Origin: a virus
Virus record (IMG/VR): IMGVR_UViG_3300021964_000026
Location: 38,932-102,931 of that record
Length of the DNA stretch: 64,000 nt
Reading direction: 5' to 3' (one strand)
Positions 23,156-45,777 of the stretch are shown here, in pieces; the stretch's first letter is position 1; the number at the start of each line of letters is the position of its first letter. Made by a program: the position numbers and the translations under genes. The notes beneath the pieces were generated by a model. The model had not been told where the DNA came from. It saw only the letters and a list, made by a program, of their open reading frames with translations, and made no database searches.

Positions 23156-23305
23156 TCAAGCACCACACCCGCCTTTATCCATGCAGTCGGAACACTTGTT
23201 CTTCCCGCAGTTGTCGCAACACTTGCTCGCGCGGCAACCACTTTTGCCGCACTCGTCGCATCCATCACCTTTCATAATCGTCCAAGCATCGTTCATTGGG
23301 TTCAT
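23156..23305 (-). CDS. Metallothionein-like Cys-rich peptide (49 aa; absent from ORF track)
   Basis: MNPMNDAWTIMKGDGCDECGKSGCRASKCCDNCGKNKCSDCMDKGGCGA*; AGGTGA RBS upstream; fills the gap between two genes exactly. Confidence 0.75.
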   Translation of the reverse strand: MNPMNDAWTIMKGDGCDECGKSGCRASKCCDNCGKNKCSDCMDKGGCGA

Positions 23306-23306
23306 T

Positions 23307-23786
23307 TCATTCACCTAACCGTTGGACTCGTCGCATTGTTGACGCAGACGGCTCAAACACGCTTTGAGGGTTTTTGTCCATTGGGAATGCTTGACGATAG
23401 TCTGCACCTGCTCCCGTTTGTTCTGCTCTTTGAGCCAAACGCTGTTGTTTTGCATCGCGTCTTCGGTCCATGAAACGCTGTTTTGGTGGTCGCGAAATCG
23501 CTGACTCTTCTTGTCCTGTGTGACCTAACGATTGAAACGAGCGTTCGTCACCGACAGATGGGTGTTGCTGACGCTCCGGCCTTCCTGCCCTGTATCCGTA
23601 TTGTCCATAAGTCCGCATGTCTCTTGAAGAAGGATGTGTGTCGCCAGCATTGTAGGTTGCTCCGGGTTGTTGCACAAACTGTTGAGGTATCGTGCCTCCC
23701 GTTCCTAACCGATTCGTTCCTTGCATGTCTGCTTGTTGCTCCGGGTTTGCTTTCAACAATTTCCACGCTTCATTCATCGGATTCAT
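23307..23786 (-). CDS. Hypothetical Q/R-rich protein with MNPMNEAWKLLK leader (159 aa)
   Basis: GAGGTGA RBS before ATG 23786; low-complexity, probably disordered. Confidence 0.7.
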   Translation of the reverse strand: MNPMNEAWKLLKANPEQQADMQGTNRLGTGGTIPQQFVQQPGATYNAGDTHPSSRDMRTYGQYGYRAGRPERQQHPSVGDERSFQSLGHTGQEESAISRPPKQRFMDRRRDAKQQRLAQRAEQTGAGADYRQAFPMDKNPQSVFEPSASTMRRVQRLGE

Positions 23787-23796
23787 TCTGTTCACC

Positions 23797-25743
23797 TCAC
23801 ATATGCAAGAAAGCATCGCGCGAAATCACGCGCACATGCTTCGGCATGATTTTCAATTCACTCTTGATAACACCCTTGTCTTCGGGGATGGGGAGGGGAG
23901 CCTCCGTGATAATGTAGTCGTCAACAACAATAATGACCTCTTCGCGGTTTGCACCAGCACCAGCCTTCGTCAGCGTGAGTGTGATAGGTTCGGTGAAGTC
24001 ATGTGTTCGGTTGGTTCGGAACTCGTGCCAAATCAACGGGTCGCTGGCGATGACGGTCATGGACAATTCGTATTCCATCGTCTTTTCAATCATGAGGTTG
24101 GCGTTGCGCGAACCACCGAAGGGGATTTGCTCAAGCGAATCGCCAGCCGTGTTGCGGTCTTCGGCTTGGCTGTTGCCGCGAATGGTGTAGATGGCTTCGG
24201 TGTTGTTGTTGCCGCTCAAAGCAAAGTTTGTGACTTGCGCGATGTTGACACCAAATGAACTGATTTGTCCGTTGTAGAAGAAGAAGGGCTTCTCGGTGTT
24301 TGGCGCGATGCCAGCCTTCTTTCGGTTGATTGTGCTATTTCCGACATTCTCAAACATGCGGTGCGCGGTGTAGCGGTCGCCTTTGTTGGAGTTCTCAAGA
24401 CGACCGGTGTCGGTGTAGCAGTAGAGCGCGTCAAAGTTGATGCTCAATTTTACTTCTGCATCTGCGTCAGCCGCGAGTGAGAAGTCCTTTACTTTGCATC
24501 CTTTCCAAACGCGCGTAAGTTGTTTGCTGTCCGATGCGGAACCGGGTGCGGCTTCGTTCGCTAATGCATCCGATGTGTTAGCGTTGTAAGAACCGGTGTT
24601 GCGAGTGCGAATGCTTGATTCAAGAGCAAAAGTGGGGAGTGTAGCACCGGAGAAAAGCAGTCGCGATTGACGGTTGGTGATGGTTCCGTAGGTGGCCGCG
24701 TCGGTGTCAAAGTGCGGCGAACCGTTGGATGAAGCGGCATCATACTTCAAACGCTTGATGGTGTAGTTGCCGAGCGCGTGACTGAAATAGAATGGTTCGT
24801 CAACATGGATTCTGCGCTCGGAGAGCGTCTCGTCAACATACAACACTTGGCGGATTTCGTTTCGCTCGGCATTCTCCATTGTGATTCCTGTGCCGTCCGC
24901 ACCCCATGTTGCGCCGGAGGCGGCGGCGGGAGTGTCCTTTGGGAAGGCAACCGTTGTGCCGTCCGCGATGATGATGTAATCACCGGGGTCCGGCTTTCCG
25001 GTCATGGTTCCTGTGAAAGCGACATAGGTATCGCCAGCGGCGATGTCCTTCTTGGTATGACCGCTGGGGTCAGTCATGACTGCGCTTGGCACATCAATGA
25101 CTTCGCGACCGAGTGAGTAGTAGAGCCAACGCGCGCTGTTCATCATTATTTCCATTGAGCCGCCCTCGTTGGAGAATCGCTGTGGTTCTTGGATGACAAC
25201 ATCACGGCCTACGCCGACGATGTGCGAGCGTCGCACTTCCACTTTGGTTTCGGGAAGCGAGACGGTTGCCGCGAGGCCGATGAATTGGTCAGTCAACACC
25301 GACTCGTCAGCGGAAGCGGCATTAGCGTGATGGGTCATACCGGTGTCAATCGTGGGCGTTCCCAGCGTTTGAATGACGAGTTCATCACCCGAAGTTGAAG
25401 CAGTTGATGTGGCCTCCTTCAAATCGCGGTCAAGTGTGATTGATGTTCCAGCGTTCGCGACGATGGTGTAGGAGTTGCCCGTCGTCGCGTAGTCGTCAAG
25501 AGGGAATGTTCCGCCGCCGATGATGCGGAGTTCCGAGCCGACGAGCATGTTCTTGGGGTATCGGAGGTTGGATGAAGGAGACTCAAAGAAACCTGCGTTC
25601 GCGCCGCTAAAGGTCAACACATTGCGATTGCTTGAGTCAACTGTAAACACAAGTCCGCCAAATGAACCATGCGCGAGAACGATTCCACATTCTTTGCCGA
25701 ATGTGACCTCGGATAAGTCGCCCTTGTAAACCGTTGATACCAT
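23797..25743 (-). CDS. Major tail (tube) protein with insertion domains (648 aa)
   Basis: Position between terminator-like gene and chaperones; tube-like motifs (EVTFGKE..., LPTFALE..., GCKVKDFSL..., PFFFYNG...). Confidence 0.7.
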   Translation of the reverse strand: MVSTVYKGDLSEVTFGKECGIVLAHGSFGGLVFTVDSSNRNVLTFSGANAGFFESPSSNLRYPKNMLVGSELRIIGGGTFPLDDYATTGNSYTIVANAGTSITLDRDLKEATSTASTSGDELVIQTLGTPTIDTGMTHHANAASADESVLTDQFIGLAATVSLPETKVEVRRSHIVGVGRDVVIQEPQRFSNEGGSMEIMMNSARWLYYSLGREVIDVPSAVMTDPSGHTKKDIAAGDTYVAFTGTMTGKPDPGDYIIIADGTTVAFPKDTPAAASGATWGADGTGITMENAERNEIRQVLYVDETLSERRIHVDEPFYFSHALGNYTIKRLKYDAASSNGSPHFDTDAATYGTITNRQSRLLFSGATLPTFALESSIRTRNTGSYNANTSDALANEAAPGSASDSKQLTRVWKGCKVKDFSLAADADAEVKLSINFDALYCYTDTGRLENSNKGDRYTAHRMFENVGNSTINRKKAGIAPNTEKPFFFYNGQISSFGVNIAQVTNFALSGNNNTEAIYTIRGNSQAEDRNTAGDSLEQIPFGGSRNANLMIEKTMEYELSMTVIASDPLIWHEFRTNRTHDFTEPITLTLTKAGAGANREEVIIVVDDYIITEAPLPIPEDKGVIKSELKIMPKHVRVISRDAFLHM

Positions 25744-25763
25744 GTTGTTTGCCCCGCCCTGTC

Positions 25764-26204
25764 TTACGCGATGAGTTCCGAGAATATAACGATTTCAACT
25801 TGGAAGGTCATCCTGTGGAGTCGCTTTGTCCGGTCCGAAAGGTCAGTCCGCATCTTATAGAGTAATCGGTCAAAGTTCGCGCCATCGCCTTTTCGTTGAC
25901 TATGCACCACGCGACGAACCTCATCCTCCATTTTCATGAGGTGGCTACGACCGTTCATGGTGCGCGCATCCACGGTGATGTTGATGCGCGTGTGAACAAA
26001 GTCGTAGAACACTTCGGGTTGCTCTTCGTTGTGAACCGTTTCGTAAAGGAGGATAGCGTCTTTGTTGGTGAGGTCAAGACGCTTACCGCGACCAGCCTCA
26101 ACCGTCGTGATGTCCTCAATGATGGGTGTGCGTTGGTTCGTGTTGCCACGGTTCCAATTATCCGAGAGGATTTTTTTGATGAGTTCAACGGATTCAAGAG
26201 CCAA
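25764..26204 (-). CDS. Putative tail terminator / tail completion protein (146 aa)
   Basis: TTG start after GGGAGG RBS; size, alpha/beta pattern and position just upstream of tail tube. Confidence 0.55.
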   Translation of the reverse strand: MALESVELIKKILSDNWNRGNTNQRTPIIEDITTVEAGRGKRLDLTNKDAILLYETVHNEEQPEVFYDFVHTRINITVDARTMNGRSHLMKMEDEVRRVVHSQRKGDGANFDRLLYKMRTDLSDRTKRLHRMTFQVEIVIFSELIA

Positions 26205-26469
26205 TAATATCCCTCCCAATTGCAGATTGTGCGCGTGCTTGTTTCTTCGCCAAAGCGACGATGTTTTTGTATTCGGGACTTGACTCGTCCATGACTTTTC
26301 CGTTCGCGTCAATCAACTCTCCTTCGCTGTTGACAGCCGCTCCGTAGTCAAGGGCGCATGCGTCAAGGAAAACGCGACCTTTGTCGCTAAACACGCTGTT
26401 CTCGCGTGCTTGCTTGACAGGCTCTATGAGAGCCTTCGCGATGGCTTTATTGATTATTTCTTTCATCAC
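26194..26469 (-). CDS. Hypothetical head-tail joining region protein (91 aa)
   Basis: Coupled ORF between adaptor and terminator-like genes. Confidence 0.55.
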   Translation of the reverse strand: MMKEIINKAIAKALIEPVKQARENSVFSDKGRVFLDACALDYGAAVNSEGELIDANGKVMDESSPEYKNIVALAKKQARAQSAIGRDIIGS

Positions 26470-28064
26470 AACACCGTCATCACTTCTGTGTAGCGCGGTA
26501 AGGTTTCTGCTACCTGCGCCTTGAACAACTGATACTTACTACCCAAGTCCACATTCTGCGTGCCTTCGGGCAACAGCACGCTTCGGTCGTCGGACAGAAT
26601 CAAATCCATCGCGACCAACTTCGTGCAAACATCCTCAATAGCCTTCTCAACATACCGCTCACCGTAAACATAGGACACCTTGACGGCGTTCCATGAGAAG
26701 TAGGGGTAGGAGTTGTTGAAGTAAATCACACCCATGTCGTAGTCAGCCCACCAATCACGAAGACGAGCCTCGTCGCCTGTGGTCGTGCCTACATAATCAA
26801 TTTTGAACTTCTTTTGGAGGATGGTCGCGTCAGCGACAGCCGCCGCGCTGATGTCGCCTACGAGGTCAGCAACACCGCTCATGACATTCCCGCTAAGGCT
26901 GGTGTAGTAGCCGAACGCGCTTCCAATGCTGATGATGCCGTAAGGTGCGAATCCCGTAGCGTCAGCGACCGTGATAGTGGTCGCGGTTGATGACGACACC
27001 GTGGTTGAGTTGTCGGTCGCACCGGTGAAAGTGATGCCGTCGGAGGTGCATGCGTAGGTGGCGTTTTCGCCAGCCTCACCGCGACGCATGGAGGTGATTT
27101 TGAGTTGACCGCCACCGTAGTCAGCATTCGCGGAAGCCATAAACTCGTGATGCACCGATGCGGTGATTTGCCCGTCGGTGGCGGCGGTTGTGTCTTCAAG
27201 GTGAAAGTTGGGTGAGAAATGAATCTCATTTTTCCCTTTGCGCGTATCCTTATTGATGAGGTCGGCAAGTTGTTGAGCGGTGCTAACATTGTCAAAACGA
27301 GCCGCGAACCGATGCGTGTGGTTGCTTGTGCCATCACCAGCCGTCAGCGTAGCCACACCTCCACCACCGGGACACAGAAACACTTTGTCCGTCCCAGCCG
27401 TCAGTTGCGTAAAGTCAGCCACCTTAAGTCGGATTTCAGCCGCCGCGATTTCGCGGTAATCAGCACCTTGCCATATCTCAAGGCGAAGAATCTGTTGCGC
27501 GTTGCGGAACATCAAGGGGACAGAACCCACATAGTCGGTGTAGTAGCGGCGACGGTAGGGCTTGTAGGTGTCAAAGTTGAGGTATTCAGCCGTCTGCAAC
27601 ATAGGTCGCCATGCGTTGTTTGTGAGGTTGTCAATTTTGTCTTGGGTGCGGAGGATGAGCGTTTCAACCTGCGCTTTCGTGACCCCTTTGCGTTTGCCGT
27701 TCGTGAACGATTGGAGGTTTTGCACCTGCGCGTTTGCCGCTGTGGTGTAGTCTCCTGTCAAAGCCCCTGTGAAAGAAAGACGAACATTGCCGGAAGCGCG
27801 AGCCACACTTGTGATAACTCGTTCCTCACCCATTTCGGTATCGCTGGTAATTTCAATCGTATCACCTACTTCAAACCCAACCAATCGGTAGTCTGCGGGG
27901 GAAATGTCAACATGGGTAGAGCCGTCTTCTGCGGCCAAGTAAACAGGGTCGGGGAATGGGATTTGAAGAATGTCAGCAACCTTCTGTGCGGATGTGTAGT
28001 AAAGCCTGTCGGGAAAAAGAGGACGACCTTCGCGCTCACCTGTTTGGAATACGGTCGGCATCAC
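26466..28064 (-). CDS. Head-tail adaptor-like protein with large insertions (532 aa)
   Basis: YYTSAQKVADIL...LILRTQDKIDNLTNNAW...VKVSYVYG...AIEDVCTKLVA matches the gp6/gp15-type adaptor pattern. Confidence 0.6.
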   Translation of the reverse strand: MMPTVFQTGEREGRPLFPDRLYYTSAQKVADILQIPFPDPVYLAAEDGSTHVDISPADYRLVGFEVGDTIEITSDTEMGEERVITSVARASGNVRLSFTGALTGDYTTAANAQVQNLQSFTNGKRKGVTKAQVETLILRTQDKIDNLTNNAWRPMLQTAEYLNFDTYKPYRRRYYTDYVGSVPLMFRNAQQILRLEIWQGADYREIAAAEIRLKVADFTQLTAGTDKVFLCPGGGGVATLTAGDGTSNHTHRFAARFDNVSTAQQLADLINKDTRKGKNEIHFSPNFHLEDTTAATDGQITASVHHEFMASANADYGGGQLKITSMRRGEAGENATYACTSDGITFTGATDNSTTVSSSTATTITVADATGFAPYGIISIGSAFGYYTSLSGNVMSGVADLVGDISAAAVADATILQKKFKIDYVGTTTGDEARLRDWWADYDMGVIYFNNSYPYFSWNAVKVSYVYGERYVEKAIEDVCTKLVAMDLILSDDRSVLLPEGTQNVDLGSKYQLFKAQVAETLPRYTEVMTVL

Positions 28065-28921
28065 TCATCCTCCATTCTCGCGCGATAATCAAGGAACCTG
28101 TTTTTCAAGTTTTTCGGCATTTTAGGTAGTCTTCCGTGTTCTTGATGGAAAGCGTGTATGTCGGGGAACAGGTGGTCAACTCTACCGCCGCGTGATTCTT
28201 TGCGAGTGCGACGCAGTTTTTGTTCAAACTCTTCTTGCGCTCGTCGTTGCGCTAATTGGAGGTTGTATTGTTGAACGCGAGGTGTTTCTTTTGGAGCCTG
28301 TGCTTGAGACTGTTGACGGATGCGCTGTTCTTCTGCTTGCATTTCTCGCAACTTTTGAGCGTGTTCTGCGAAACCTTGAGCCTCCATTTCTTCGGGCGTC
28401 ATTTTCAGCAACCGCCAAGCCAACTCCATCGCTTCGCCAGCGTTTTTTTGCTGAAAATCACGAATGTTTTGATTGAAGTCCCCATGCACCGAATCCTGCC
28501 AATCACTTTCCCCTCTATTGGGAGGCATAGGATTCTTTTCATTGTCGCGGCCAACATCAATCATGTTTCTTTTAGGGATGATGTTCACCCCTCGCCTCGC
28601 TCGCTCATCGGATAACCGTTGATGCCATTCCGCACTCGGTGCGACATGTTGAGCAAAGTCCAATTCCTTAGCACTCCATTGTGATACATCGTCGGGTCGT
28701 TGCGCTACCCACGATTCCCATTCTTGCGGACTCGGAACCCTTCCCATGTAACCTCCGCCTCTATTGTTAGGGTCAAACTCCAATCGCGACTGCCTCGGTG
28801 CGAATAAGCCAATTTCGGGTGTATTCAAAGGAAGTGGCGGGGTGTCCCCATGATACGCGGGAGGTTCCTCACCCGCGGCGTTATTTTTCAACAGCCTCCA
28901 AGAGAAGTTCATTGGATTCAT
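28061..28921 (-). CDS. Hypothetical protein with two copies of the MxxxWRLLK tag
   Basis: ATG 28921 in TGATG overlap; N-terminal MNPMNFSWRLLK and internal AMELAWRLLK. Confidence 0.7.
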   Translation of the reverse strand: MNPMNFSWRLLKNNAAGEEPPAYHGDTPPLPLNTPEIGLFAPRQSRLEFDPNNRGGGYMGRVPSPQEWESWVAQRPDDVSQWSAKELDFAQHVAPSAEWHQRLSDERARRGVNIIPKRNMIDVGRDNEKNPMPPNRGESDWQDSVHGDFNQNIRDFQQKNAGEAMELAWRLLKMTPEEMEAQGFAEHAQKLREMQAEEQRIRQQSQAQAPKETPRVQQYNLQLAQRRAQEEFEQKLRRTRKESRGGRVDHLFPDIHAFHQEHGRLPKMPKNLKNRFLDYRARMEDE

Positions 28922-29187: not shown

Positions 29188-29197
29188 GTCGTTCACC

Positions 29198-29371: not shown

Positions 29372-29382
29372 GGTGAATCACC

Positions 29383-30002: not shown

Positions 30003-30012
30003 AAGAACCACC

Positions 30013-30474: not shown

Positions 30475-30485
30475 ATTTCATCACC

Positions 30486-31634
30486 TCATTGTAGGTCGCG
30501 AATGCTCCCGCTTGCGCCAAAGAACGAACACCAAAGTTCGCCCATCGTTCGGTAAAGCCCCTCTTGTCCAAGACGGTTAATCGCGAATGGGTCGCCCGTT
30601 TCAATACCGCTTTCGTAGTATTGGGTTGGGATTGCAGTTTGGAACCACAGGTAGTCCGTGTCCAAGTAGTAAATGCGCGACAGACTGCTTGCGCCTTCGT
30701 CGGGCATGTCTTTGGTTGGAATCATGGGGACACCGTTGTAAGTCGCGACGATGAACCCAGCCTCAAGACCGGGAACACCCTTCACACCGTTGAAAGTGGG
30801 GGTCACGCGCTTGCTGTCCATGAATCGCTGTTGCGATTGGAGCAATTGCTGAACGCGCATCAAAGTGTCGTAGCCCGTAAGCATGACCTTCGGGTTGCCA
30901 CCACGAGTCCAAAGTTGTTGGAACAATCCGTCCATTTGGTTGAGGGACAGGTTGCGGTTCGCGGATAGAGCGTCAACATCAACTTCCGCGCTGTGGAAAG
31001 CGGCGGAACCATCGCGAGTGATGGAATACATGTCGTGCTTGGTTAGCGAAGTAGTAATGTGGTTGGTTCCCGTCGTCATCTTGTCCGGGTCGGAGGTGAT
31101 TCGGTCAAGAGACTCAAAGTTGTTGCCAGCGGTCGTGTCAACATCCTCAAGGAGCATGCGGTTGATGTGTTCTGCGTGGTGCTTCCCCATTTCTTCTTTG
31201 AGAACGGTGCGCACATCGCCAAGTCCATCGTCCTTGTCGGAAAGGAACATGCTCACTTCGGACAGGTCAAAAGTGTGCGCGACAGTCTTGGGCTTTGCGG
31301 CCACATGCAGGAACTCCGGCTTGGTGGTGTCGGGAAGAACGCCGTTCTCCGCGATGCCACCGCCCTTGGTGAAGGAAGCGCGCTCCGTGAGGATGCGCCA
31401 TCCACTTCGCTCCCAAGGCTTCTTTGGCAGAATGGAGAATGCGTTGAACTCTTGGTTCAATTGCGACCACACTTTGCGACCGTAGATTGCTTGATAGGTT
31501 CCCGCGGTGGTGGACAACAAAGGCGCGTCAGCCTTCAAAATGTCGCCGCTTCCGTAGGTGTAGCCGGTTTGGGACGCGCCACCGTAGTAGTAGCGTTCCA
31601 TGTCTTGAACTGTTCTTACATAATTTCGTGCCAT
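30486..31634 (-). CDS. Major capsid protein (HK97 fold, halovirus/magrovirus type)
   Basis: AIYGRKVWSQLNQEFNAFSILPKKPW...KPKTVAHTF...ATYNGVPMIP...GELWCSFFGASGSIRDL; directly downstream of prohead protease. Confidence 0.9.
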   Translation of the reverse strand: MARNYVRTVQDMERYYYGGASQTGYTYGSGDILKADAPLLSTTAGTYQAIYGRKVWSQLNQEFNAFSILPKKPWERSGWRILTERASFTKGGGIAENGVLPDTTKPEFLHVAAKPKTVAHTFDLSEVSMFLSDKDDGLGDVRTVLKEEMGKHHAEHINRMLLEDVDTTAGNNFESLDRITSDPDKMTTGTNHITTSLTKHDMYSITRDGSAAFHSAEVDVDALSANRNLSLNQMDGLFQQLWTRGGNPKVMLTGYDTLMRVQQLLQSQQRFMDSKRVTPTFNGVKGVPGLEAGFIVATYNGVPMIPTKDMPDEGASSLSRIYYLDTDYLWFQTAIPTQYYESGIETGDPFAINRLGQEGLYRTMGELWCSFFGASGSIRDLQ

Positions 31635-33064
31635 CAGTATTCCCCTCCTTTGAGTGCCTTGTCAGCAAGTCGGTGAACATCGTCCCACGACATGTTTGCC
31701 AAGTCAGCAGTTTCGGGAATGGTCACGGATGCAGTCGCGGCGGACTTTGCAATCATGGATGAAGCGGATGAAACATTGTCAATCCGTTCGTTGAGCGCGA
31801 GGACAGCCTTCTGCAACTCAACCATTGGCTGGCGCGCGTCAAATCGGCTCTTGGCGATTGCGTCAGCCTCGGCTTTCTGCTCCTTGAGGAACCGGTCGGT
31901 GAAGTGGTTGTTCAAGTCCGACTTGAATTGTTGCTCGGTAGCCGCGGCCTTGAACACCTCGTAAGCGGACTCAATCTCGGACTGCGAAACATTCGCGGCG
32001 TTGAGGTAGTCGCCCTTGATGACATTCTTGTTGCCACTTGGCGCGGAGCCAAAGTTGGGCTGTGGTCGCTTGCCGGAATCGTCTTCGCCAGCACCTTCAA
32101 GGGAACCCTGTCCGCGCATGTCAAATGCACTTTCGCCGGGTCCGTAGCCCTTGTTGAAGTGGTCGCGAGCGGCGTTGGGGTCAAACCCTGCGCTCTTTAC
32201 AGTCTGCTCAAGCCACAGTAGGTAGTCGCTCGTAATCATGTCATTTCCTTTGCTCATTTTCTCATCTCCGTCTTCGTCGTCGTCGTCGTCGTCGTCCGCA
32301 TACATGCCTGTCTCTTTGTCCTCCATCATGGGAGGTTTCGGTTTCTTCTTGTCTTCACGAGCATCCATCAACGACTCTTCTTCGTTTCCGTCTTCGTCAA
32401 TGTCTTTCGTGTCAAGAAGGTCATCAAGACCCTTGTCTTTGGACTCTTTGTCTTTCTTGTCCTCGTCTTTCTCGTCAAGTTTCTTTGACAAGCGTTCAAG
32501 GACGCTTTGCAGTTCGCTCATCGTATTGGTCATGTTATCACCTGTGTCTTCCTTAAGGATACGAAATTGTGCTTCCGGGTTGATACCCTTCTCGCAAATC
32601 GTGACCTCATGGAGTTCCATACGACGGATTTCGCGGTAGTCTCCGCGGGTTTGGTCGCTCTTGTTGACGCGCTCAAAGGCTTGACCGCCAATGGAGAACG
32701 AGCGCAGGTTCCCTTTGCGGATTTCCGAAGCCACTTCACGCGCCTTCTCAATGTCGCCGCGTAGTTTGATAACAACAAACATGCCGGTGTCGTCCACTTC
32801 GGACTTCCACATGCGACCGGATGAATCGGTGTAGGAAGGGATGACCGTTCCCACTTGGATGTTGGAGTGTGCGAGTTGCACATTGCGAAAACCATCGGCT
32901 TTCATGAACTTGCCGAACGCGTCTTTGAGTGCCGAGCGAGTGATGAGGTCGCCCTGCTTGTCAACCATCTCAACCGACGCGTATCCAGCAACAACCAAAT
33001 CGTTCCCAAGACCCTTCAAAATGATGGGGTCCGAGGAAGAAGAGGGAGCCGCGAGAATCGCCAT
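31634..33064 (-). CDS. HK97-type prohead protease fused to acidic/coiled-coil scaffold (476 aa)
   Basis: VAGYASVEMVDKQGDLI, catalytic His (LAHSN) and Ser (FSIGG), LHEVTICEKGINPEA; acidic coiled-coil C-terminal half. Confidence 0.9.
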   Translation of the reverse strand: MAILAAPSSSSDPIILKGLGNDLVVAGYASVEMVDKQGDLITRSALKDAFGKFMKADGFRNVQLAHSNIQVGTVIPSYTDSSGRMWKSEVDDTGMFVVIKLRGDIEKAREVASEIRKGNLRSFSIGGQAFERVNKSDQTRGDYREIRRMELHEVTICEKGINPEAQFRILKEDTGDNMTNTMSELQSVLERLSKKLDEKDEDKKDKESKDKGLDDLLDTKDIDEDGNEEESLMDAREDKKKPKPPMMEDKETGMYADDDDDDDEDGDEKMSKGNDMITSDYLLWLEQTVKSAGFDPNAARDHFNKGYGPGESAFDMRGQGSLEGAGEDDSGKRPQPNFGSAPSGNKNVIKGDYLNAANVSQSEIESAYEVFKAAATEQQFKSDLNNHFTDRFLKEQKAEADAIAKSRFDARQPMVELQKAVLALNERIDNVSSASSMIAKSAATASVTIPETADLANMSWDDVHRLADKALKGGEY

Positions 33065-33082
33065 TGTCCACCCGACTCATTT

Positions 33083-36000
33083 TCATGCTATATCAAGGGA
33101 ACCCTTCTCAATCGCGATAACACCTTCGTCTTCAAGACGCGCTGTTTCGCCTCTATTGCTTCGCAGTCGCTTGGTTTTTTTTGCCGTGGCTGGCTTCAAC
33201 TCGTCATCGGCTCGCGCTTGGGGGTCAAAATCCGGCATGGTGTTATCGCGGATGTTCTGCGTTGGTCCTCGCGGAGACTCGTCGGGTGTCGCATAATCCA
33301 TACCCAAACCCTGCACACCGGTGCTGGTGATTTTCTCTTTGGCGAGATGTTCCAATCCGCGCTCAATCAAATCAAGTCCACGCTTGATGACCTCTTCTTC
33401 TTCCTCCAACACATGCTTTCGTTTCTTGGAGTGTCCAGCGGGAGGTTCGGGTTCAACTTCATCGTATTCGGGTTCTTCAACATCCTCTTCTTTCAACAAC
33501 CAAGCCGCTTTTGCAACCCAATACGCTTCTTGGTCCCGCGCTAATCGCACAAGGTATTCGTTGCCCCACACGGAAGACTGCGGCTCAACATGCCACAGAC
33601 CGTCTTCTTTGCGCGTTTTGCAAATCACCTCATCGTCAAACGCAGGGAAGCGTATGATGATGTTGCCTTTCTTCATGGATACGCGTTGAGGAACATGATG
33701 CTCACCCGACATGATAGCGAGGGTTTCTACGCTGTTTGCCGCGAACGGTTCGTTGTCGGTGATTTTTGCGGAGCGGATGCGGTAGACGGGGTGTTCTTTC
33801 TTTGATGCACTCACACCTGTGCAACGCACCGTAGCAAAATCACCCACCTTCAACCCGCGTGGTCCTTTCGCGCTACCTACATTCATGTAGTGTTCTTCAC
33901 CAACCTGTTGTGCGCGCTTCCCGTAATTTTCCGGATGCATCAGCGGTCCGACACCAATGCCGTAAGTCGTCCCCGATGCGGAGAGAATGATGACATCCAC
34001 CATTTTTTCTTTGCTCAACAGCACCCATTTCGGATGACGCGACTCTCCTTTCATGTAGGTTGCGTTGGCATCGCGAAGAAGAATGTCAACGCCATCGTTT
34101 TCTTTCCGCAAACCGTCAATCGCGGTTTGCAACCCTTCGTCATCGCTACGCTTGGTGTTGATGGGTTCGGGCATTTTGATGTGTTCGCTGGATTCGTATT
34201 GAGCGCGAAGGTGGCGGATGCGGTCTTTCGTCGGCATGTTGTGCGTGTCCTCGTCTGCCGTCTTGAGCAAGTCAATGACGGTCATCAATCCATCATGAAG
34301 AACCGCGTGAACCGTGAAGTCCTTCTCGTAGACCTTATCCGCTTCCTCCAAAATAGTCTCATCCAACTTCACCTCTCCGTCAACACCGTATGCCGTGATG
34401 CCTTTTTTGTCTTTGGTCGCGATAACATGTTCACCTTGCGGGTAGAGCGATATGACCCAATCACCTGTAAAACCGCGCAGATGTTGCATGTCATCCAAGT
34501 CAAATATCCGGTGCATGAACTTGACAGGTTGGGGCTTCCCGTCCTCTTTGATGAGCAAAGTGTCGTCAAGCGCGACATCAAGAATGTGGGCTGACATGTT
34601 GAAGCCTTCGCCGACTTCGGGCATTTGGTCTTGAGCGTTCGCCATCACCGCGTGAAGGTCTTGACCTAAGCGTTGGTTCGGGTTTGGTTGACCTTCAAAC
34701 TGCGTGTAGTCCAAGTATTGCAGGTTGTTGGTGTCCAACTGCGGCAGGTCCGGATTTGCTCTTTTCATGGCTTTGGGAGGCATCACCAACTTCATCGCAG
34801 GTGGAGGATTGAATGTGTGCGTGTCCTCGTTTTCAAAGTAGACCTTCGCATCGTTCAACGCACCGGGGATAGCGGTGAAAGGTAAAGGACGACGCGTTGC
34901 GTATCCCAAGTGAAACTTTTTGTCCGCGCAAGTGAAAACAGGCGTGACCGGTGCGTTGTGCAAATTGGAACGACGGTCCCCCAACTCACCCATTGAGTCT
35001 CCCAGCGTGCTTCCCATCATGACAGGTTCGGAGTTGGTTGATGTGTTTCGTAGCACTCGTTTGCTGGTTGCATCACCCAGCACATCGGCGATGTTGCGGA
35101 GGGATTGACCGTTGTGAAAGTTCATCACTTTTTGAGGTCGCCGTTGTGGGGCATTTCCTTGAAACATACGCAGTTTGGAAAAGTCAAGCGCGACATCCGA
35201 GCCTTGCTCGGTGAGTTTGTGCGCGTTTTGCAAAACACGAACGATGGCTTGGCGTTCACGGTCAAAGGATACCGGTTGATTCTTTTTGCCTCTCTTGAGT
35301 GTTGCACTCGCGCCACCATGACGAACGCCGTGGATTTGAGCGTCAAGTTCTGCAAAGGAACCACCGTTGTTGAAAACATAATTGTTGCCTCCGCGCTTCG
35401 GTAAATCAACGATGTCCAACATGTCTTTCGCGTTAGCACCGGTCAACATCACACCATCGTTGTTGTGTAAAGCGTATCGTGCTACGAATGCGTCTTTCCA
35501 AGAAATCTCCTGTTCTTTGCTCGCCGCTTTGACATTCTCCATCACTTGATTGAAAATGCTCACATCATCGTCTTCAACCGCGTCAACACCATCAGCGAGG
35601 TCCGAAGCCACACGATGACCTTTCGGTTGAACACCGCCGTAGATACGGTCAAGCATTTTTTCTGCCATGTAAGGGGAACCGCTATGCACATTTCTGTTGA
35701 CGCGAAGTTCCTTCAAACCTTTGACGACATCATCGGGTAAATCAAACTTCGCTGTTTTTTTGCCGATGCTGATACCGTCCTTCAACAACTTTTCTCGCGT
35801 TTCCGGTTTGAGCATGGCGATTTGCTCCGCAAGTTTCAGCGCGTAAGCAGTCGCGACCCACGCTTTGTCGTTGTCTTCTGTGAACACACCGGGAAACAAC
35901 TTCTCAATCGTGGGACGAAGGGCTTGTTGGAAAATCTGCTCAACCGCATTCAAGGTGTCCACATTGTTTTGCAACAGCCGCGCGTCATTCTCCAATTTCA

Positions 36001-39130: not shown

Positions 39131-39141
39131 ACTTCATCACC

Positions 39142-40177: not shown

Positions 40178-40208
40178 GCGTCCGACGAGGACGCTTCACC
40201 ACTTTAAC

Positions 40209-42056: not shown

Positions 42057-43459
42057 ATCATCTCCACAAGTCGGTTAGCGTCGTCAAGGAGACGAAGGGT
42101 TTCACCATCCCGACTGAATAGCGCACGCACTCCCGCCTCATCAATGTTCCACTCCTTAAGCAATTCTTCACGCTTGTCCGGAACATCCTTCCAATTTAAC
42201 CATTTGACGATGCGATAAAGTTCATCGCGACGCGATTTGATAATGTCAGTTTTCCGACCGCGCAAATCAAGCAATTCAAGGACAGCACCCGCTTGTCCCT
42301 TCTTCATACGAAGGTGCGGACGAATACCCTTCATCAATGCGCGAAGGTCGTTTTCGCTGTAAAATTGAAGACGATGTTGTGTGCGTCGGCTGTTCTTGTG
42401 GATTTTCAAATCGGTTTGAAGCACACCACAACCGAGGGCTTTGTGCAATTGTTCGCAATGCAACTTCCCCCGCTCACCTGTCGCGATGAAACCAGCACGA
42501 GGCTCAAGCCGCTTGGTGATGGTGATGTAGCCATCAGCGTCAAGGAAGCCAGCGGCGTAAGCCCACACATCCTTGAAAATCACGGTGTTATCGCGAACGA
42601 TTCCCCACCCTGCACCGACTTTTTCAATGTCGTATTCTACACCATGCATTTTGAACAGCGCGCTTAGTTGCGGTATTGAAAGGTGTTTGGTGTTTTCCAT
42701 GCTCGCAAACACTTCACTCGCAGGTAAAGGTCCGCGCTCTTCAAGCACCGTCGCGGCTTTTGTCAAGTAAATTGCATCGGTCTTTTTGATGTTGTCAACC
42801 GAATGGAGACTGTTTCGCCACTCTTTTTTTGCATTCTTTTTCAGTTGTTGCGCGTCAACCCACATCTGCCGTTGTTCTTCATTGAAGTCGCCTTCAATCA
42901 ACAGCAACTTGCTGATGATGTCGTTCGCTTTTTCCCATTGCACGCAAGCACGACGAAGTGCATATTCACGCGTTTGACCGTGTTTGCGGAGTGCGAGCAA
43001 ATCGCGTTCGCTCACACCCAAATTGCGAACGGTTGATTCGTGCTTCCCAATCCAATCAATGGATTGAAGCGTAGCCTCCACTTCCTGTTTCTTCGCAATG
43101 CGGATGGCGTCAATCGCGTGGTCAATGGCTTCGCGCATTTCTTTATGCTCGCGTCGTGCCATACGGAGGTCTTTGACCAAATCCCCAGCACCACGACCGA
43201 ACATTGATTGAAACCAACCACCGTCGGGGAGAGAACGGTTGAGTTGTTGAGCAACTTCCCGCGCCATCTGTTTCTTTTTTTCTTCTTCCTCTACTTCGTT
43301 AGGGCGCGGAGGTGTAGGGTTTGCGTTGGCTTCACCCTGTCCTTGAGACACAGGCATGGGTGCATCACCAAATGTCGGACCCTCAATGACATTCTTCAAC
43401 AACGGATTGTCGCTGAACATGTCGGGGTCCGACAAATCAATCAATACGCTCGCCCCCAA
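42053..43459 (-). CDS. Protein with C-terminal LAGLIDADG endonuclease-like domain (468 aa)
   Basis: YAAGFLDADGYITI motif followed by typical beta/alpha pattern (IRPHLRMKKGQA); helical N-terminal 290 aa. Confidence 0.85.
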   Translation of the reverse strand: MGASVLIDLSDPDMFSDNPLLKNVIEGPTFGDAPMPVSQGQGEANANPTPPRPNEVEEEEKKKQMAREVAQQLNRSLPDGGWFQSMFGRGAGDLVKDLRMARREHKEMREAIDHAIDAIRIAKKQEVEATLQSIDWIGKHESTVRNLGVSERDLLALRKHGQTREYALRRACVQWEKANDIISKLLLIEGDFNEEQRQMWVDAQQLKKNAKKEWRNSLHSVDNIKKTDAIYLTKAATVLEERGPLPASEVFASMENTKHLSIPQLSALFKMHGVEYDIEKVGAGWGIVRDNTVIFKDVWAYAAGFLDADGYITITKRLEPRAGFIATGERGKLHCEQLHKALGCGVLQTDLKIHKNSRRTQHRLQFYSENDLRALMKGIRPHLRMKKGQAGAVLELLDLRGRKTDIIKSRRDELYRIVKWLNWKDVPDKREELLKEWNIDEAGVRALFSRDGETLRLLDDANRLVEMI

Positions 43460-43608
43460 TACAATGCAAAATCAATTTTGCATGTTAGGCATTTGTCCGA
43501 TTGCAAAGTCGCTTTTTTGCATTTGCGACATACCGTCGCGTAACGAATGCGCTTCGGCAACTTTCTCCGCACTTTGTGCTTGAACACATCGTAGTGTTTG
43601 CTCGGCAT
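43441..43608 (-). CDS. Small basic Zn-ribbon protein (55 aa; absent from ORF track)
   Basis: MPSKHYDVFKHKVRRKLPKRIRYATVCRKCKKATLQSDKCLTCKIDFALYWGRAY*; TGATG coupling to upstream gene. Confidence 0.65.
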   Translation of the reverse strand: MPSKHYDVFKHKVRRKLPKRIRYATVCRKCKKATLQSDKCLTCKIDFALYWGRAY

Positions 43609-44486
43609 CACCACTTCACCTTATCCGCCCAATACGCGGCACTCATCGGACCGCGTGCTATGTTCTTTCGGTGTCGCGACTTGAATGACTTGCGTTTTGC
43701 TTTCATCCGCGCGGATTCACCAGCCTTCGGTTTACCTGCAACGCTTGCGCCCTGCTCACCGAAGCGAATTGTTTTGACTTTGCCGCCCGAACGAGCGACA
43801 ACAATGTGCGACTTCTTGGGATGGTCGGGTGTCTTCTTCGGCTTGTTGTAGCCTTCCACACCCGCACGCTCAAGGCGCGTGTCTTTCTTGAGAAGCCGCC
43901 AAGAAAGGTTCATTGGATTGCCTGTGCGAATGTCGGGGTGTCGCATGTTGCGAAACGAATTAGGCATGTTTTGTGCTTCATCAATTTCTTGCGTGATTAT
44001 TTGAGGACGAGGCGCGTCAATCTCAATGTAAGGGTCTTCCTTCGGTTTGTTAGGGTCGGGTCGTAATGCCCCTCCTGTCAGCATATCAAAGAATGCATTG
44101 CCTGTCTTTTCATTCGGGTCAACGCGCGTCGTCGTGGTTTTAGTAGGAGTCACTTGTCCGACTTCAACTCCAATAAGACCGCGGTGAGGCTCTCCTTGAG
44201 GTAAATTGCTTCCTTGCATCGCGCTTGCCGTGTTCGCAATGCAGTCGTCCGTGGTGCATCCGATGCCACCATGCCCCATGTGGACTTTGTTGCCTCCGCA
44301 TTCATACGGACAATCGCCGCCTATGTCCATGCTGGCTGGATTGTATTGAGTGATGGAGTTTCCTTGTTGGTCATACGCGTAAGGAACAGAATGAACAGGG
44401 TGGTTAGGGTCCTTTACCCTCTCCCATTGTTCCATGTAGTCTTCCTGTTTGAGAAGAAGCCACCAATCGTCGCTCAACAATTCCAC
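43608..44486 (-). CDS. Two-module protein: Cys-containing domain plus basic marine-virus domain, each preceded by a W-x-LLK tag
   Basis: C-terminal GYNKPKKTPDHPKKSH...TIRFGEQG...RKSFKSRH...SAAYWADKVKW is a recurrent basic viral domain; tags DDWWLLLK and NPMNLSWRLLK. Confidence 0.7.
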   Translation of the reverse strand: MELLSDDWWLLLKQEDYMEQWERVKDPNHPVHSVPYAYDQQGNSITQYNPASMDIGGDCPYECGGNKVHMGHGGIGCTTDDCIANTASAMQGSNLPQGEPHRGLIGVEVGQVTPTKTTTTRVDPNEKTGNAFFDMLTGGALRPDPNKPKEDPYIEIDAPRPQIITQEIDEAQNMPNSFRNMRHPDIRTGNPMNLSWRLLKKDTRLERAGVEGYNKPKKTPDHPKKSHIVVARSGGKVKTIRFGEQGASVAGKPKAGESARMKAKRKSFKSRHRKNIARGPMSAAYWADKVKW

Positions 44487-44887
44487 CTCTTCAATGCCGC
44501 TCCCTTCGGGGTCAACTTACCCTTCTTGGAGGTTGGACCTTTGACGCCACTCATCCGCGCGCAAAAAGACTTCCTACGACCAGCGGCTTTGCCACCAGCC
44601 TTGAGTTTGCTTGGTTTCTTTGTGACAGGTCGCTTGAGGTTCGCGCCTGTTTTGCGCTTGGCGGCGGCACGACCTTTTGCATTCAAACCGCCTGTGCGCG
44701 CATGTTTGTTCTTGTTATAGCCGTGAAACGGTTTGCTTTTACTTTTGGCTTTGAGAATCGCCATGCTGATTTCAAACGGAGTGCAACATGTGCAAAAAGA
44801 GACTTCTTTCGCGATGTCATCATCATACATCGCAATCAACTCTTCCGCGGTGATTGGCTTGTGATAAATCAATTCAAACTCACTCAT
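44474..44887 (-). CDS. Highly basic viral protein (DUF6321-like)
   Basis: GGLNAKGRAA...GANLKRPV...RRKSFCARM...ALKRWNC, recalled from marine phage families; family name unverified. Confidence 0.65.
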   Translation of the reverse strand: MSEFELIYHKPITAEELIAMYDDDIAKEVSFCTCCTPFEISMAILKAKSKSKPFHGYNKNKHARTGGLNAKGRAAAKRKTGANLKRPVTKKPSKLKAGGKAAGRRKSFCARMSGVKGPTSKKGKLTPKGAALKRWNC

Positions 44888-44891
44888 TTTG

Positions 44892-45359
44892 TCAACCCCT
44901 CGTCAAATGATGATACCCGCATATACATGGGTATGTGTTGATTCTATAACCCACTTGCTTTGATTGATACGCTCTATCGGGTTCCGCGTGCGCGGGAGAT
45001 TGGTATTGATTCTTCTTCGGAGTAGGGCATTTTTCACCTGTTGGTGTGTCGTAGCCACCGCCCTTCATGAAAAGCCACGCATCATCCATCGCTTTAACGA
45101 TGGTGGGCTTTCCGCCTACACCCTGCTTTTTACTACGCTTGCGTTTTGTTGCCGCGCGCTTTTGACCCGTTGACATAGAGCCGCTGGTCTTGGGAGTTTT
45201 GCTTGATACCTTAACGGATGGGCGACACTTGGGGTAGCCCTTTGAGGAAGTCTTGGCTTTGCTTCGGCCACAGGGAGGATGCTTACCGTCCTTACCTGTG
45301 CGCGAAACATCCACCCACTTCTCCTTGAACCAACGGTTCAAGTTCTTTTCAACCGTCAT
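44892..45359 (-). CDS. Basic protein (DUF5872-like C-terminal half) fused via tag to a C...YxCxxCxxHLT domain
   Basis: LNRWFKEKWVDV...CGR...YPKCRP; then MDDAWLFMK and CPTPKKNQY...YPCICGYHHLT; ATGA coupling. Confidence 0.65.
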   Translation of the reverse strand: MTVEKNLNRWFKEKWVDVSRTGKDGKHPPCGRSKAKTSSKGYPKCRPSVKVSSKTPKTSGSMSTGQKRAATKRKRSKKQGVGGKPTIVKAMDDAWLFMKGGGYDTPTGEKCPTPKKNQYQSPAHAEPDRAYQSKQVGYRINTYPCICGYHHLTRG

Positions 45360-45559
45360 TTTCCAGCCCACGCATCACAAGTATAGTCTTCGTGGCAGTT
45401 AAAATCATACCACTTACAGTAGCCCGTCTTTGGGTCTTCTGTTGCTGAATCGTCCCACGCTTTGCAGTTGCCGCAACACTTCTTGTTTTCACAAGGGCGA
45501 TAATTCGGCGCGTCTTTCTTGGCTTTCATCAAAGCCCACGCTTCTTCAAGAGGAATCAT
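45356..45559 (-). CDS. HiPIP-like Cys-rich small protein (67 aa)
   Basis: NYR...CGNCKAW...GYCKWY...TCDAW follows HiPIP Cys spacing; leader MIPLEEAWALMK. Confidence 0.6.
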   Translation of the reverse strand: MIPLEEAWALMKAKKDAPNYRPCENKKCCGNCKAWDDSATEDPKTGYCKWYDFNCHEDYTCDAWAGK

Positions 45560-45747: not shown

Positions 45748-45777
45748 TTCAAAAACCCCATTCATTAAAAGGATAAA

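What the first reader, a model, noticed from the sequence alone, without database searches (positions are those of the whole stretch)
23156..45559. Recurring MNPMxxAWxLLK peptide tag on unrelated cargo domains: candidate modular capsid-loading and processing system
Seen: the same ~12-aa amphipathic motif occurs at least 8 times in 6 otherwise unrelated ORFs spread over 22 kb. Copies: MNPMNDAWTIMK (23270-23305), MNPMNEAWKLLK (23751-23786), AMELAWRLLK (28403-28432), MNPMNFSWRLLK (28886-28921), NPMNLSWRLLK (43887-43919), LSDDWWLLLK (~44448-44477), MDDAWLFMK (45063-45089), MIPLEEAWALMK (45524-45559). It always sits at the N-terminus or exactly at a junction between domains, giving tag-domain-tag-domain polyproteins. 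Weaker copies occur in other head-region proteins (DAAFGYLEK, EISMAILK, DEAFEMIRK, ASWDSLLK, KAAWLLK). Established: T4 internal proteins share an N-terminal capsid targeting sequence removed by the prohead protease, and HK97 protease cleaves after Lys. Inference: the tag directs small effectors (metal-binding, basic DNA-binding, disordered) into the procapsid, and cleavage after the final Lys frees them for co-injection. Its DNA may also act as a cassette or recombination handle that lets new cargo genes enter the late operon.
Basis: partly seen in the sequence, partly recalled or inferred. Interest (0 to 1): 0.9.

Follow-up and report, generated by a model that had tools for sequence, protein, structure and literature searches.

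The report
Shared cargo tag in archaeal virus
A 12-residue peptide (MNPMNxAWxLLK) is reused at the start of, between, and sometimes at the end of dozens of unrelated late proteins in an abundant group of marine archaeal tailed viruses, most likely as a common signal for protease processing and capsid loading, much like the leader on phage T4's injected internal proteins.

Summary
The window (3' 64 kb of a 102.9-kb magrovirus-like archaeal tailed virus) holds 8 model-supported tags plus 1 diverged copy in 7 ORFs. The strict motif occurs 8 times in the genome against 0.1 in shuffles.

Related IMG/VR genomes carry 10-17 tags each. In five near-complete genomes, 56 of 59 tags lie on the structural-module strand. 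In total, 232 unique tags flank about 157 unrelated, mostly orphan segment families.

Tags come in two flavours: N-terminal (MNPMN[ED]AWxLLK, each behind a Shine-Dalgarno) and internal ([GS]EPMD[LI]AWRLLK). Internal tags join 2-7 unrelated modules into polyprotein-like ORFs. About 5% of tags are C-terminal.

The same cargo occurs stand-alone or fused in different genomes. At one hotspot, homology is 81-90% up to the tag and vanishes right after its Lys. Synonymous sites are scrambled, so selection is on the peptide. Cellular genomes and haloviruses lack the tag.

Best reading (about 0.5): a T4-CTS-like targeting and processing signal cut after Lys by the HK97-type (S78) prohead protease, whose own domain ends in an invariant tag-like ...FRILK. 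Cleavage and packaging are inferred, not shown. An uncleaved docking helix is the main rival. The scan noted this motif once before, on the neighbouring window of the same genome.

The parts
23270..23305 (-). Tag 1, N-terminal (MNPMNDAWTIMK) of a 49-aa Cys-rich mini-protein (ORF 23156-23305)
   Evidence: (33.6 bits); GGTGA Shine-Dalgarno upstream
23751..23786 (-). Tag 2, N-terminal (MNPMNEAWKLLK) of a 159-aa orphan protein (ORF 23307-23786)
   Evidence: (37.3 bits); GAGGTGA upstream
28886..28921 (-). Tag 3, N-terminal (MNPMNFSWRLLK) of the two-module 286-aa ORF 28061-28921
   Evidence: (35.3 bits)
28403..28438 (-). Tag 4, internal (GEAMELAWRLLK, residues 162-173 of ORF 28061-28921). The module after it (MTPEEMEA...) is a stand-alone N-tagged gene in some relatives.
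   Evidence: 13 stand-alone vs 12 fused; 37.9 bits; no SD
43887..43922 (-). Tag 5, internal (GNPMNLSWRLLK, residues 189-200 of ORF 43608-44486). phrog_7595 starts at residue 200.
   Evidence: (27.6 bits)
44448..44483 (-). Diverged N-terminal tag (ELLSDDWWLLLK) of ORF 43608-44486. The apparent G002 orthologue has a canonical tag at its N-terminus.
   Evidence: below threshold; orthology judged by eye from the downstream sequences
44750..44785 (-). Tag 6, internal W->M variant (CTPFEISMAILK, residues 35-46 of ORF 44474-44887), directly before the DUF6321 module
   Evidence: (23.4 bits)
45063..45098 (-). Tag 7, internal (VKAMDDAWLFMK, residues 92-103 of ORF 44892-45371), directly after the DUF5872 C-terminal-half module (phrog_23735 ends at residue 95)
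   Evidence: (24.9 bits)
45524..45559 (-). Tag 8, N-terminal (MIPLEEAWALMK) of a 67-aa Cys-rich protein (ORF 45356-45559)
   Evidence: (29.1 bits)
31634..33064 (-). S78 (HK97-type) prohead protease fused to scaffold: the candidate reader and cutter of the tag. His66 and Ser124 are invariant.
32552..32581 (-). Tag-like end of the protease domain (NPEAQFRILK, then ED and a hypervariable linker): candidate self-release site
   Evidence: invariant in 53 sequences; short strand, then disordered; homologous strand in haloviruses and HK97 gp4
33491..33508 (-). Shortened tag-like site AAWLLK|EED in the 2015-aa head protein (33083-39130), at the boundary between a folded domain and an acidic tail
   Evidence: AAWLLK / AALLLK / APLMIK, Lys conserved in four genomes
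30486..31634 (-). HK97-fold major capsid protein: the shell into which tagged proteins are proposed to be loaded

Best explanation
The tag is a short, portable recognition peptide read in trans by the virus's head-assembly machinery. It marks accessory late proteins, whether stand-alone or concatenated into polyproteins, for incorporation into the procapsid. It also supplies a cleavage site after its invariant Lys for the S78 prohead protease. On this view a fast-changing set of small proteins is released inside the head and probably delivered with the DNA, as with the T4 internal proteins and their capsid-targeting sequence.

Shown: the tag's existence, modularity, peptide-level selection, restriction to the late module, virus specificity, placement at module boundaries, and a cargo-swap hotspot.

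Inferred: which component reads it, that it is cut after Lys, and that the cargo ends up in virions and is injected.
For: (1) Strong enrichment, coding strand only (78 of 78 on the MCP strand).
(2) About 157 unrelated segment families among 380 segments flanked by 344 tag instances. None of 20 cargo proteins from the MCP-centred loci has a Pfam match.
(3) 15 of 63 multi-member families occur both as stand-alone N-tagged genes and as fused internal modules, as expected if both forms give the same mature products.
(4) Near-identical linkers join 2-7 unrelated modules.
(5) Conservation ends sharply at Lys (4.0 bits, then 1.1), with A or G at P1' in about half of cases.
(6) HK97, the one S78 protease with a verified site, cuts after Lys at TFNK|S.
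(7) The virus's own protease domain ends in an invariant NPEAQFRILK, followed by a hypervariable, predicted-disordered linker. The giant head protein has a conserved AAWLLK|EE at a domain/tail boundary.
(8) In haloviruses, K|[AS][DK]G sites fall at the protease/scaffold junction and the end of the MCP N-terminal extension in both viruses, and in HCTV-1 also at the end of the protease N-terminal extension and near the portal C-terminus.
(9) 56 of 59 tags lie on the structural strand and none in the replication module.
(10) The hotspot has constant upstream sequence plus tag and unrelated cargo, matching the T-even Ip loci (PMC3012670, PMC12373910).
Against: There is no proteomic or structural evidence for cleavage or packaging.

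About 5% of tags are C-terminal with only 2-11 residues after the Lys. Cutting there achieves little, so at least part of the function is docking rather than removal.

The FRILK strand is the native end of the S78 fold (homologous in haloviruses and HK97), so its likeness to the tag may be partly coincidental.

P1' is variable (A, G, N, M, E, Q). Lys specificity is established only for HK97.

Tagged genes also sit next to tail-fibre genes and at the far end of the late operon, not only in the head block.

AlphaFold gave no confident structure for a tagged protein.
Confidence: 0.5

Rival explanations
1. Uncleaved docking helix. The tag is a position-independent short amphipathic peptide that binds a common site, for example the inner face of the HK97-fold shell, the scaffold or another virion hub. 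It tethers cargo without being cut, like an encapsulin cargo-loading peptide. Multi-tag ORFs would then be multivalent beads-on-a-string proteins.
For: Tags work at N-terminal, internal and C-terminal positions. C-terminal tags make little sense as cleavage sites. The M-x-x-A-W-x-L-L pattern preceded by N/E-P fits a capped amphipathic helix (read directly from the sequence). A 12-residue conserved stretch is longer than a typical protease site.
Against: Near-identical linkers between every pair of unrelated modules, and free interchange of fused and split forms, are explained more simply by cleavage. The conserved Lys with a small P1' resembles the HK97-type site. C-terminal tags always keep at least 2 residues after the Lys (0 of 11 with 0-1).
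Confidence: 0.25
2. Polyprotein-processing signal unrelated to the capsid. The tag is the recognition site of some protease, viral or host, that cuts late polyproteins and leaders in the cytoplasm as an expression strategy. The products act in the cell, not in the virion.
For: Multi-tag ORFs of up to at least 1,205 aa. Some tagged genes lie outside the head block.
Against: S78 is the only protease family recognised among the roughly 30 window ORFs scanned against Pfam; the window's two largest ORFs (5109 and 2310 aa) and the upstream 39 kb were not scanned. No cellular genome carries the motif, which argues against a host signal. Single-domain proteins with only an N-terminal tag gain nothing from cytoplasmic cleavage.
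Confidence: 0.12
3. Intracellular sorting or membrane-binding helix. The amphipathic tag directs late proteins to a membrane or a viral assembly compartment, possibly linked to the small-GTPase membrane operon noted by the first reader at 52.7-56 kb.
For: Amphipathic character. A membrane/GTPase gene block lies in the same late region (unchecked note).
Against: Twelve residues with only 4-5 hydrophobic positions is weak for membrane binding. Repeated internal copies and the sharp Lys boundary are not expected of such a helix. No co-variation or linkage with that operon was tested or seen.
Confidence: 0.08
4. DNA-level element (recombination handle or cassette boundary), or a diverged paralogous family, rather than a functional peptide.
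For: At one hotspot homology breaks exactly at the end of the tag.
Against: At identical residues only 38-56% of codons are the same. All six Leu codons are used. The longest shared run within this genome is 12 nt. Cargo segments show no similarity to one another and differ widely in composition.
Confidence: 0.03

Closest known systems
Capsid targeting sequence (CTS) of T-even phage internal proteins Ip1-3, Alt and relatives
   Same: A short shared N-terminal leader on otherwise unrelated, highly diverse small proteins. The genes sit in polymorphic hotspots. The leader ends at the prohead protease's cleavage residue. The cargo is packaged and injected as anti-defence proteins (PMC3012670, PMC12373910).
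   Different: No sequence similarity. The tag ends in Lys, not Glu. The protease is HK97-type S78, not T4 gp21. The host is archaeal. The tag also occurs internally (polyproteins of up to 7 or more modules) and at C-termini, which I do not know of for T4. Function is untested here.
Prohead-protease-processed head and ejection proteins of giant phages (phiKZ, SPN3US)
   Same: Many head-internal proteins are cut, some at several sites, at a short consensus by the prohead protease (PMC10052503, PMC7411985).
   Different: Their consensus is a 3-residue A/S/G-x-E motif (my recollection, not read here), not a 12-residue portable module. They have no concatenation of unrelated modules with identical linkers and no gene fusion/fission pattern.
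Encapsulin cargo-loading peptides
   Same: A short peptide on unrelated cargo that docks to the interior of an HK97-fold shell. It can work from either terminus and is portable to foreign proteins (PMC8346489 and reviews listed).
   Different: Encapsulin peptides are Gly-rich and extended, usually C-terminal, and uncleaved. The shells are cellular compartments with one or a few cargos. No sequence similarity.
HK97 gp4/gp5 maturation, and self-release of protease-scaffold fusions (P2 gpO, herpesvirus assemblin)
   Same: S78 family protease with conserved His and Ser. HK97 cuts after Lys before a small residue. The domain end carries a hydrophobic-hydrophobic-Lys in HK97 (IAAMK), the haloviruses (GVVSK) and this clade (FRILK). 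Self-release at the protease/scaffold junction is described for P2 gpO (as quoted in preprint 10.64898/2026.09.13.751334).
   Different: HK97 has essentially one substrate class, its own MCP delta domain. Here the MCP has no propeptide, and the putative substrates are dozens of accessory proteins.
Polyproteins of large dsDNA viruses (ASFV pp220/pp62, poxvirus and adenovirus core precursors)
   Same: Core or internal virion proteins are made as precursors and cut at a short consensus by a virion-associated protease (my knowledge, not checked here).
   Different: These are eukaryotic viruses with cysteine proteases and GG-X / AG-X sites. Their modules are fixed structural proteins, not hypervariable orphans.

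Membership tests
T4-type capsid-targeting leader / internal-protein system | One short leader shared by otherwise unrelated small proteins | tested here: met
   About 157 unrelated segment families behind one tag
T4-type capsid-targeting leader / internal-protein system | Genes in polymorphic hotspots with constant leader and variable cargo | tested here: met
   Upstream 84-90% and tag 81% identical, then 27-36% after the Lys; at least 5 cargo types in one slot
T4-type capsid-targeting leader / internal-protein system | Leader strictly N-terminal and removed by the prohead protease at its last residue | tested here: inconclusive
   58 of 78 tags in the MCP-centred loci are N-terminal, but internal and C-terminal copies exist. 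Removal is untestable in silico.
T4-type capsid-targeting leader / internal-protein system | Sequence homology to the T4 CTS, or a gp21-type protease | tested here: not met
   The tag ends in Lys and the protease is Pfam S78. The system is analogous, not homologous.
T4-type capsid-targeting leader / internal-protein system | Leader sufficient to load foreign protein into capsids; cargo injected | not testable with these tools
   Needs co-expression or virion proteomics
Substrate of an HK97-family (S78) prohead protease | A catalytically competent S78 protease encoded next to the MCP | tested here: met
   PF04586 at E=1e-9. His66 and Ser124 invariant in 25 sequences. Core fold pLDDT 75-85.
Substrate of an HK97-family (S78) prohead protease | Site resembles known or inferred sites of the family (Lys at P1, small P1') | tested here: met
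   HK97 TFNK|S verified. Tag ...LLK|[AG]. Own junction FRILK|E. Halovirus K|[AS][DK]G at expected processing points.
Substrate of an HK97-family (S78) prohead protease | Demonstrated cleavage | not testable with these tools
   Halovirus virion-protein papers are not held
Encapsulin-type cargo-loading peptide | Short terminal peptide on cargo encoded beside an HK97-fold shell gene | tested here: met
   All 78 tags lie within 10 kb downstream of the MCP in 36 loci
Encapsulin-type cargo-loading peptide | Gly-rich extended consensus; shell without portal, terminase or tail | tested here: not met
   The tag looks helical and amphipathic. The locus is a full tailed virus with TerL, portal, tube and tape measure.
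Magrovirus-like archaeal tailed viruses (Marine Group II / Poseidoniales viruses) | About 100-kb linear genome; MCP about 33% identical to haloarchaeal siphovirus MCPs only; halovirus-like structural block | tested here: met
   102.9 kb. MCP 33% to HVTV-1/HCTV-1 with the same gene order. Matches the description in PMC5434244. Many Tara Oceans relatives.
Magrovirus-like archaeal tailed viruses (Marine Group II / Poseidoniales viruses) | Archaeal-type replisome genes (PolB, RFC, MCM, primase); host assignment | not tested
   The early module lies upstream of the window and was not annotated. The only host hint is a 3.3-kb tagged contig binned in an archaeal MAG.

The most novel reading that the evidence does not exclude
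These abundant marine archaeal viruses use a portable 12-residue 'capsid-loading code'. One peptide, read by the HK97-type protease/scaffold/shell system, both loads and liberates a large, rapidly exchanged arsenal of orphan proteins. These include true polyproteins of 5-10 unrelated modules, an expression strategy not described for tailed viruses. The same peptide would be a viral counterpart, and possibly an evolutionary precursor, of encapsulin cargo-loading peptides.
Probability: 0.3. Interest if true: 0.9.

Novelty: new variant of a known kind. Interest (0 to 1): 0.78.

Why it matters
If the reading holds, a simple sequence search would list the packaged and processed accessory proteome of one of the most abundant archaeal virus groups in the ocean: 10-17 tags per genome, over 550 MCP relatives in IMG/VR, and 4,272 protease clusters. 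That set contains hundreds of orphan families that are otherwise uninterpretable and are prime candidates for injected counter-defence proteins against uncultured Marine Group II archaea.

It would be the first case of a polyprotein strategy in Caudoviricetes. It would also give a 12-residue tag for loading foreign proteins into an HK97-fold capsid.

The idea is directly testable by heterologous co-expression, although the hosts are uncultured.

Tried and rejected
- **Chance or composition:** rejected by shuffles and by the strand control.
- **Host-derived signal (like L27/Prp mimicry in phage 80alpha):** a scan of 596 Gb of cellular genomes gave one real hit, a viral-looking 3.3-kb contig. 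The other three hits are not in ORFs.
- **Tag shared with cultured relatives:** HVTV-1 and HCTV-1 late regions have none.
- **DNA-level repeat:** rejected by codon analysis.
- **Internal tags as hidden gene starts:** no Shine-Dalgarno upstream of any internal copy.
- **Chaperonin or a second protease as reader:** no such Pfam family among the window ORFs scanned. The 5109-aa and 2310-aa ORFs and the upstream 39 kb were not scanned.
- **Cargo function:** Pfam found nothing in the 20 cargo proteins from MCP-centred loci. Across all tagged proteins scanned it found only DUF5872, DUF6321 and weak sub-threshold GNAT, HMG-box and Gly-zipper hits. PHROGs gave only 'unknown function'.
- **AlphaFold of the two-module protein without an alignment:** mean pLDDT 54, uninformative.
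- **Co-variation of tag with protease junction:** not possible. The junction is invariant in all 53 sequences, and the protein search lists only members at least 87% identical.
- **Halovirus virion-protein papers** (PMC3592136, PMC3737338, PMC3696780): not held.
P0025 is not in IMG/VR.
It was redone by deriving them from the loci.

Full report
**What the window is.** The window is bases 38932-102931 of a 102,931-bp IMG/VR virus record estimated 98% complete. All long ORFs in the window are on the - strand. Pfam identifies a T4-type large terminase (45778-47181), portal (40209-42056), S78 'HK97' prohead protease fused to a long C-terminal region (31634-33064), HK97-fold MCP (30486-31634) and tail tube (23797-25743).

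The MCP's only annotated relatives are the roughly 102-104-kb haloarchaeal siphoviruses HVTV-1, HCTV-1 and HCTV-5 (33% identity) and a few methanogen viruses. Gene order matches the haloviruses. This is the description of magroviruses, viruses of Marine Group II archaea (PMC5434244). The clade is very abundant: more than 550 MCP relatives in IMG/VR and 4,272 protease clusters, many from Tara Oceans on contigs of about 100 kb.

**Checking the observation.**
- [AS]Wx[ILFM][ILM]K occurs 8 times in the genome against 0.1 in shuffles.
- A position-weight model built from 204 instances in other contigs, with this genome excluded, recovers eight tags in the window at 23-38 bits. Shuffles give 0.1 per genome at 12 bits or more.
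W->M/F/Y occurs in 47 of the 204 model instances.
- LSDDWWLLLK is below threshold. It sits at the N-terminus where the apparent G002 orthologue has a canonical tag (orthology judged by eye).
- The N-terminal copies each follow a GGTG-type or G-rich Shine-Dalgarno by 4-8 nt. The internal copies have none.
- Independently defined families begin or end at the tags. phrog_7595 starts at residue 200, the last residue of tag 189-200. phrog_23735 ends at residue 95, where tag 92-103 starts. The DUF6321-type families start just after tag 35-46.

**The tag in relatives.**
- A back-translated MNPMNxxWxLLK pattern, for which I estimate about 0.02 chance hits, finds 28 IMG/VR contigs. The internal flavour EPMDxAWRLLK finds 20 more, many of them complete genomes of 95-108 kb.
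- In 80 MCP-centred loci (925 kb) there are 78 tags. All 78 are on the MCP strand and all lie downstream of the MCP. 58 are N-terminal and 20 internal, on 37 unrelated cargo clusters.
- Whole-genome censuses give 10, 13 and 17 tags in three complete genomes and 16 hits at a looser threshold in an 82.8-kb relative.
- Across five near-complete genomes, 56 tags are on the structural-module strand and 3 on the other (amino-acid-weighted binomial P = 7e-9). None is in the replication module.
- Pooling all sources gives 344 tag instances (232 unique by context; several contigs were fetched twice) flanking 380 segments in about 157 clusters, of which 94 are singletons.
- Representatives of 23 of 37 cargo clusters are acidic, 7 are basic and 4 are Cys-rich. 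None of 20 cargo proteins from these loci has a Pfam match.
- Cellular genomes lack the tag: 4 hits in 596 Gb, of which only a 3.3-kb viral-like contig in an archaeal MAG is real. HVTV-1 and HCTV-1 also lack it.

**Anatomy of the tag.**
- The consensus is x-[N/E]-P-[M/L/I/F]-[N/D/E]-x-A-W-x-[L/V/F/I]-L-K. Information falls from 4.0 bits at Lys to 1.1 at the next residue (A or G in about half of cases) and about 0.5 beyond, with Pro enriched three residues after the Lys.
- There are two flavours: MNPMN[ED]AWxLLK at true N-termini, and [GS]EPMD[LI]A[W/M/F/Y]RLLK internally.
- Internal tags join unrelated segments of roughly 80-450 aa into polyprotein-like ORFs. Examples are 4 tags in a 776-aa ORF, 5 and 4 tags in adjacent ORFs of 1,029 and 1,079 aa, and 7 tags in an ORF of at least 1,205 aa that appears to continue across the ends of its contig.
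- A profile of the tag searched against 1.84 billion proteins gives 27 library-wide significant hits, led by multi-tag proteins. Single tags are too short to reach significance, so this is a lower bound.
- 11 of 232 unique tags are C-terminal, with 2-11 residues after the Lys and never 0 or 1. One example is a Cys-rich protein ending ...AWRLLKNDK just before the giant fibre gene.

**Evolutionary behaviour.**
- The same cargo family is found as a stand-alone N-tagged gene in some genomes and as an internal module in others, in 15 of 63 multi-member families. Both internal tags of the window's two-module proteins are examples.
- At one slot downstream of the MCP, 11 distinct contigs are 84-90% identical over the 300 nt upstream and 81% across the tag. 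Identity then drops to 27-36% (ungapped) immediately after the Lys codon, with at least 5 unrelated cargos.
- Within genomes, identical tag residues share a codon only 38-56% of the time, and all six Leu codons are used. The longest exact run shared by two tags in this genome is 12 nt. Selection therefore acts on the peptide.

**Who reads it?**
- S78 is the only protease family recognised among the window ORFs scanned.
- Its catalytic-type His66 and Ser124 are invariant, and the core folds at pLDDT 75-85.
- A gap-tolerant tag pattern hits only three things in the genome: the tagged proteins, the end of the protease domain (GINPEAQFRILK-ED), and AAWLLK-EED near the C-terminus of the 2015-aa head protein.
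- The protease junction is invariant in 53 distinct sequences and is followed at once by a linker that varies in length and composition. AlphaFold predicts that linker to be disordered.
- The giant-protein site keeps its Lys in four genomes, at a boundary between a folded domain and an acidic tail.
- The FRILK strand is, however, the native end of the S78 fold. Haloviruses have ...KFGVVSK there and HK97 gp4 has ...GIAAMK, with the Lys at the same spacing from the conserved Cys in HK97 gp4 and here.
- HK97's verified maturation cut is TFNK|SLGS, since PDB chains of mature gp5 start at residue 104.
- In the haloviruses, hydrophobic-x-K|[AS][DK]G occurs only on the coding strand (3 sites in HVTV-1, 5 in HCTV-1). 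These sites include the protease/scaffold junction and the end of the roughly 70-residue MCP extension that our MCP lacks, in both viruses. In HCTV-1 they also include the end of the protease N-terminal extension and a site near the portal C-terminus.
- Together these make Lys-specific cutting by this protease lineage plausible, but they do not demonstrate it.

**Interpretation.** The features that are shown are these: one leader on many unrelated, fast-changing small late proteins; a hotspot with constant leader and variable cargo; an ending at the residue type the neighbouring prohead protease is expected to cut. [quoted passage not shown]

I therefore favour a targeting-plus-processing signal for procapsid loading (about 0.5). 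The polyprotein architecture and the neutrality of fusion and fission argue for cleavage. The C-terminal tags argue that docking is part of the function, and an uncleaved docking helix of the encapsulin type is the main rival (about 0.25). Cytoplasmic polyprotein processing (0.12), sorting to a membrane or compartment (0.08) and a DNA-level role (0.03) are less likely.

**Novelty.** No paper in the searchable library links magroviruses with polyproteins, and the tag is absent from cultured relatives. The kind of system (a capsid-targeting leader, with protease-processed head proteins) is known. The sequence, the archaeal virus lineage, the HK97-type protease context, the scale, and above all the concatenation into multi-module polyproteins and the position-independent use are new. 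I rate it a new variant of a known kind.

**Limits.**
- All functional statements are inferences from sequence.
- Counts include some redundancy between overlapping loci.
- Gene calls in relatives are a simple longest-ORF heuristic.
- Strand was used as a proxy for the late module.

Noticed in passing
window 3962-19291 (-): A single 5109-aa ORF downstream of the tape-measure region. Homologues of 5,526-5,660 aa occupy the same position in three complete relatives (37-46% identity). It is presumably a giant tail fibre or adhesin. It carries no tags.
   Followed up: partly
window 44892-45765 (-): DUF5872 appears split. Its N-terminal part is in the 69-aa ORF 45556-45765 and its C-terminal part in ORF 44892-45371. 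A tagged Cys-rich gene (45356-45559) lies between them.
   Followed up: partly
window 42053-43459 (-): The 468-aa ORF between the portal and the tagged genes contains a LAGLIDADG-like motif (..GFLDADGYI..). It has no Pfam hit and may be a homing-endonuclease-derived domain.
   Followed up: no
window 40209-40700 (-), portal C-terminus: The portal ends in a long Gly/Pro/Met-rich low-complexity tail with GGMPPGG-type repeats, which is unusual for portal proteins.
   Followed up: no
window 32480-32550 (-), just after the protease junction: Conserved Met residues (..NMTNTMSELQSVLERL..) directly after the hypervariable linker could be an internal start for a nested scaffold protein, as reported for HFTV1 gp17/gp17.5 (preprint 10.64898/2026.09.13.751334).
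   Followed up: no
genome 35357-36394 (upstream of the window; L048:2358-3395): A 345-aa multi-module ORF has one degenerate tag (SEPMDVVARLLK-AP) and three minimal hydrophobic-K-A-P junctions (VIVKAP, HIKAP, VIKAP). These may be cleavage-only sites lacking the N-terminal half of the tag.
   Followed up: partly
L051 (WTHI01000045.1, 3.3 kb): A contig carrying a tagged KPKRTP-domain gene is binned in a 'Methanobacteriota archaeon' MAG. It is either a weak host hint or a binning artefact.
   Followed up: no
G007 (108,650 bp): 107575-108651 and 43-3618: Two multi-tag ORFs abut the two contig ends and probably form one polyprotein of about 1,550 aa with about 9-10 tags. The contig would then be a circular permutation or a terminally redundant genome.
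   Followed up: no
L032/L033 (HVTV-1, HCTV-1): Halovirus MCPs carry a basic N-terminal extension of about 70 aa, and their proteases an N-terminal extension of about 150 aa. This clade lacks both. In HCTV-1 both extensions end in K|ADG; in HVTV-1 the MCP extension does. This predicts the halovirus maturation sites.
   Followed up: partly
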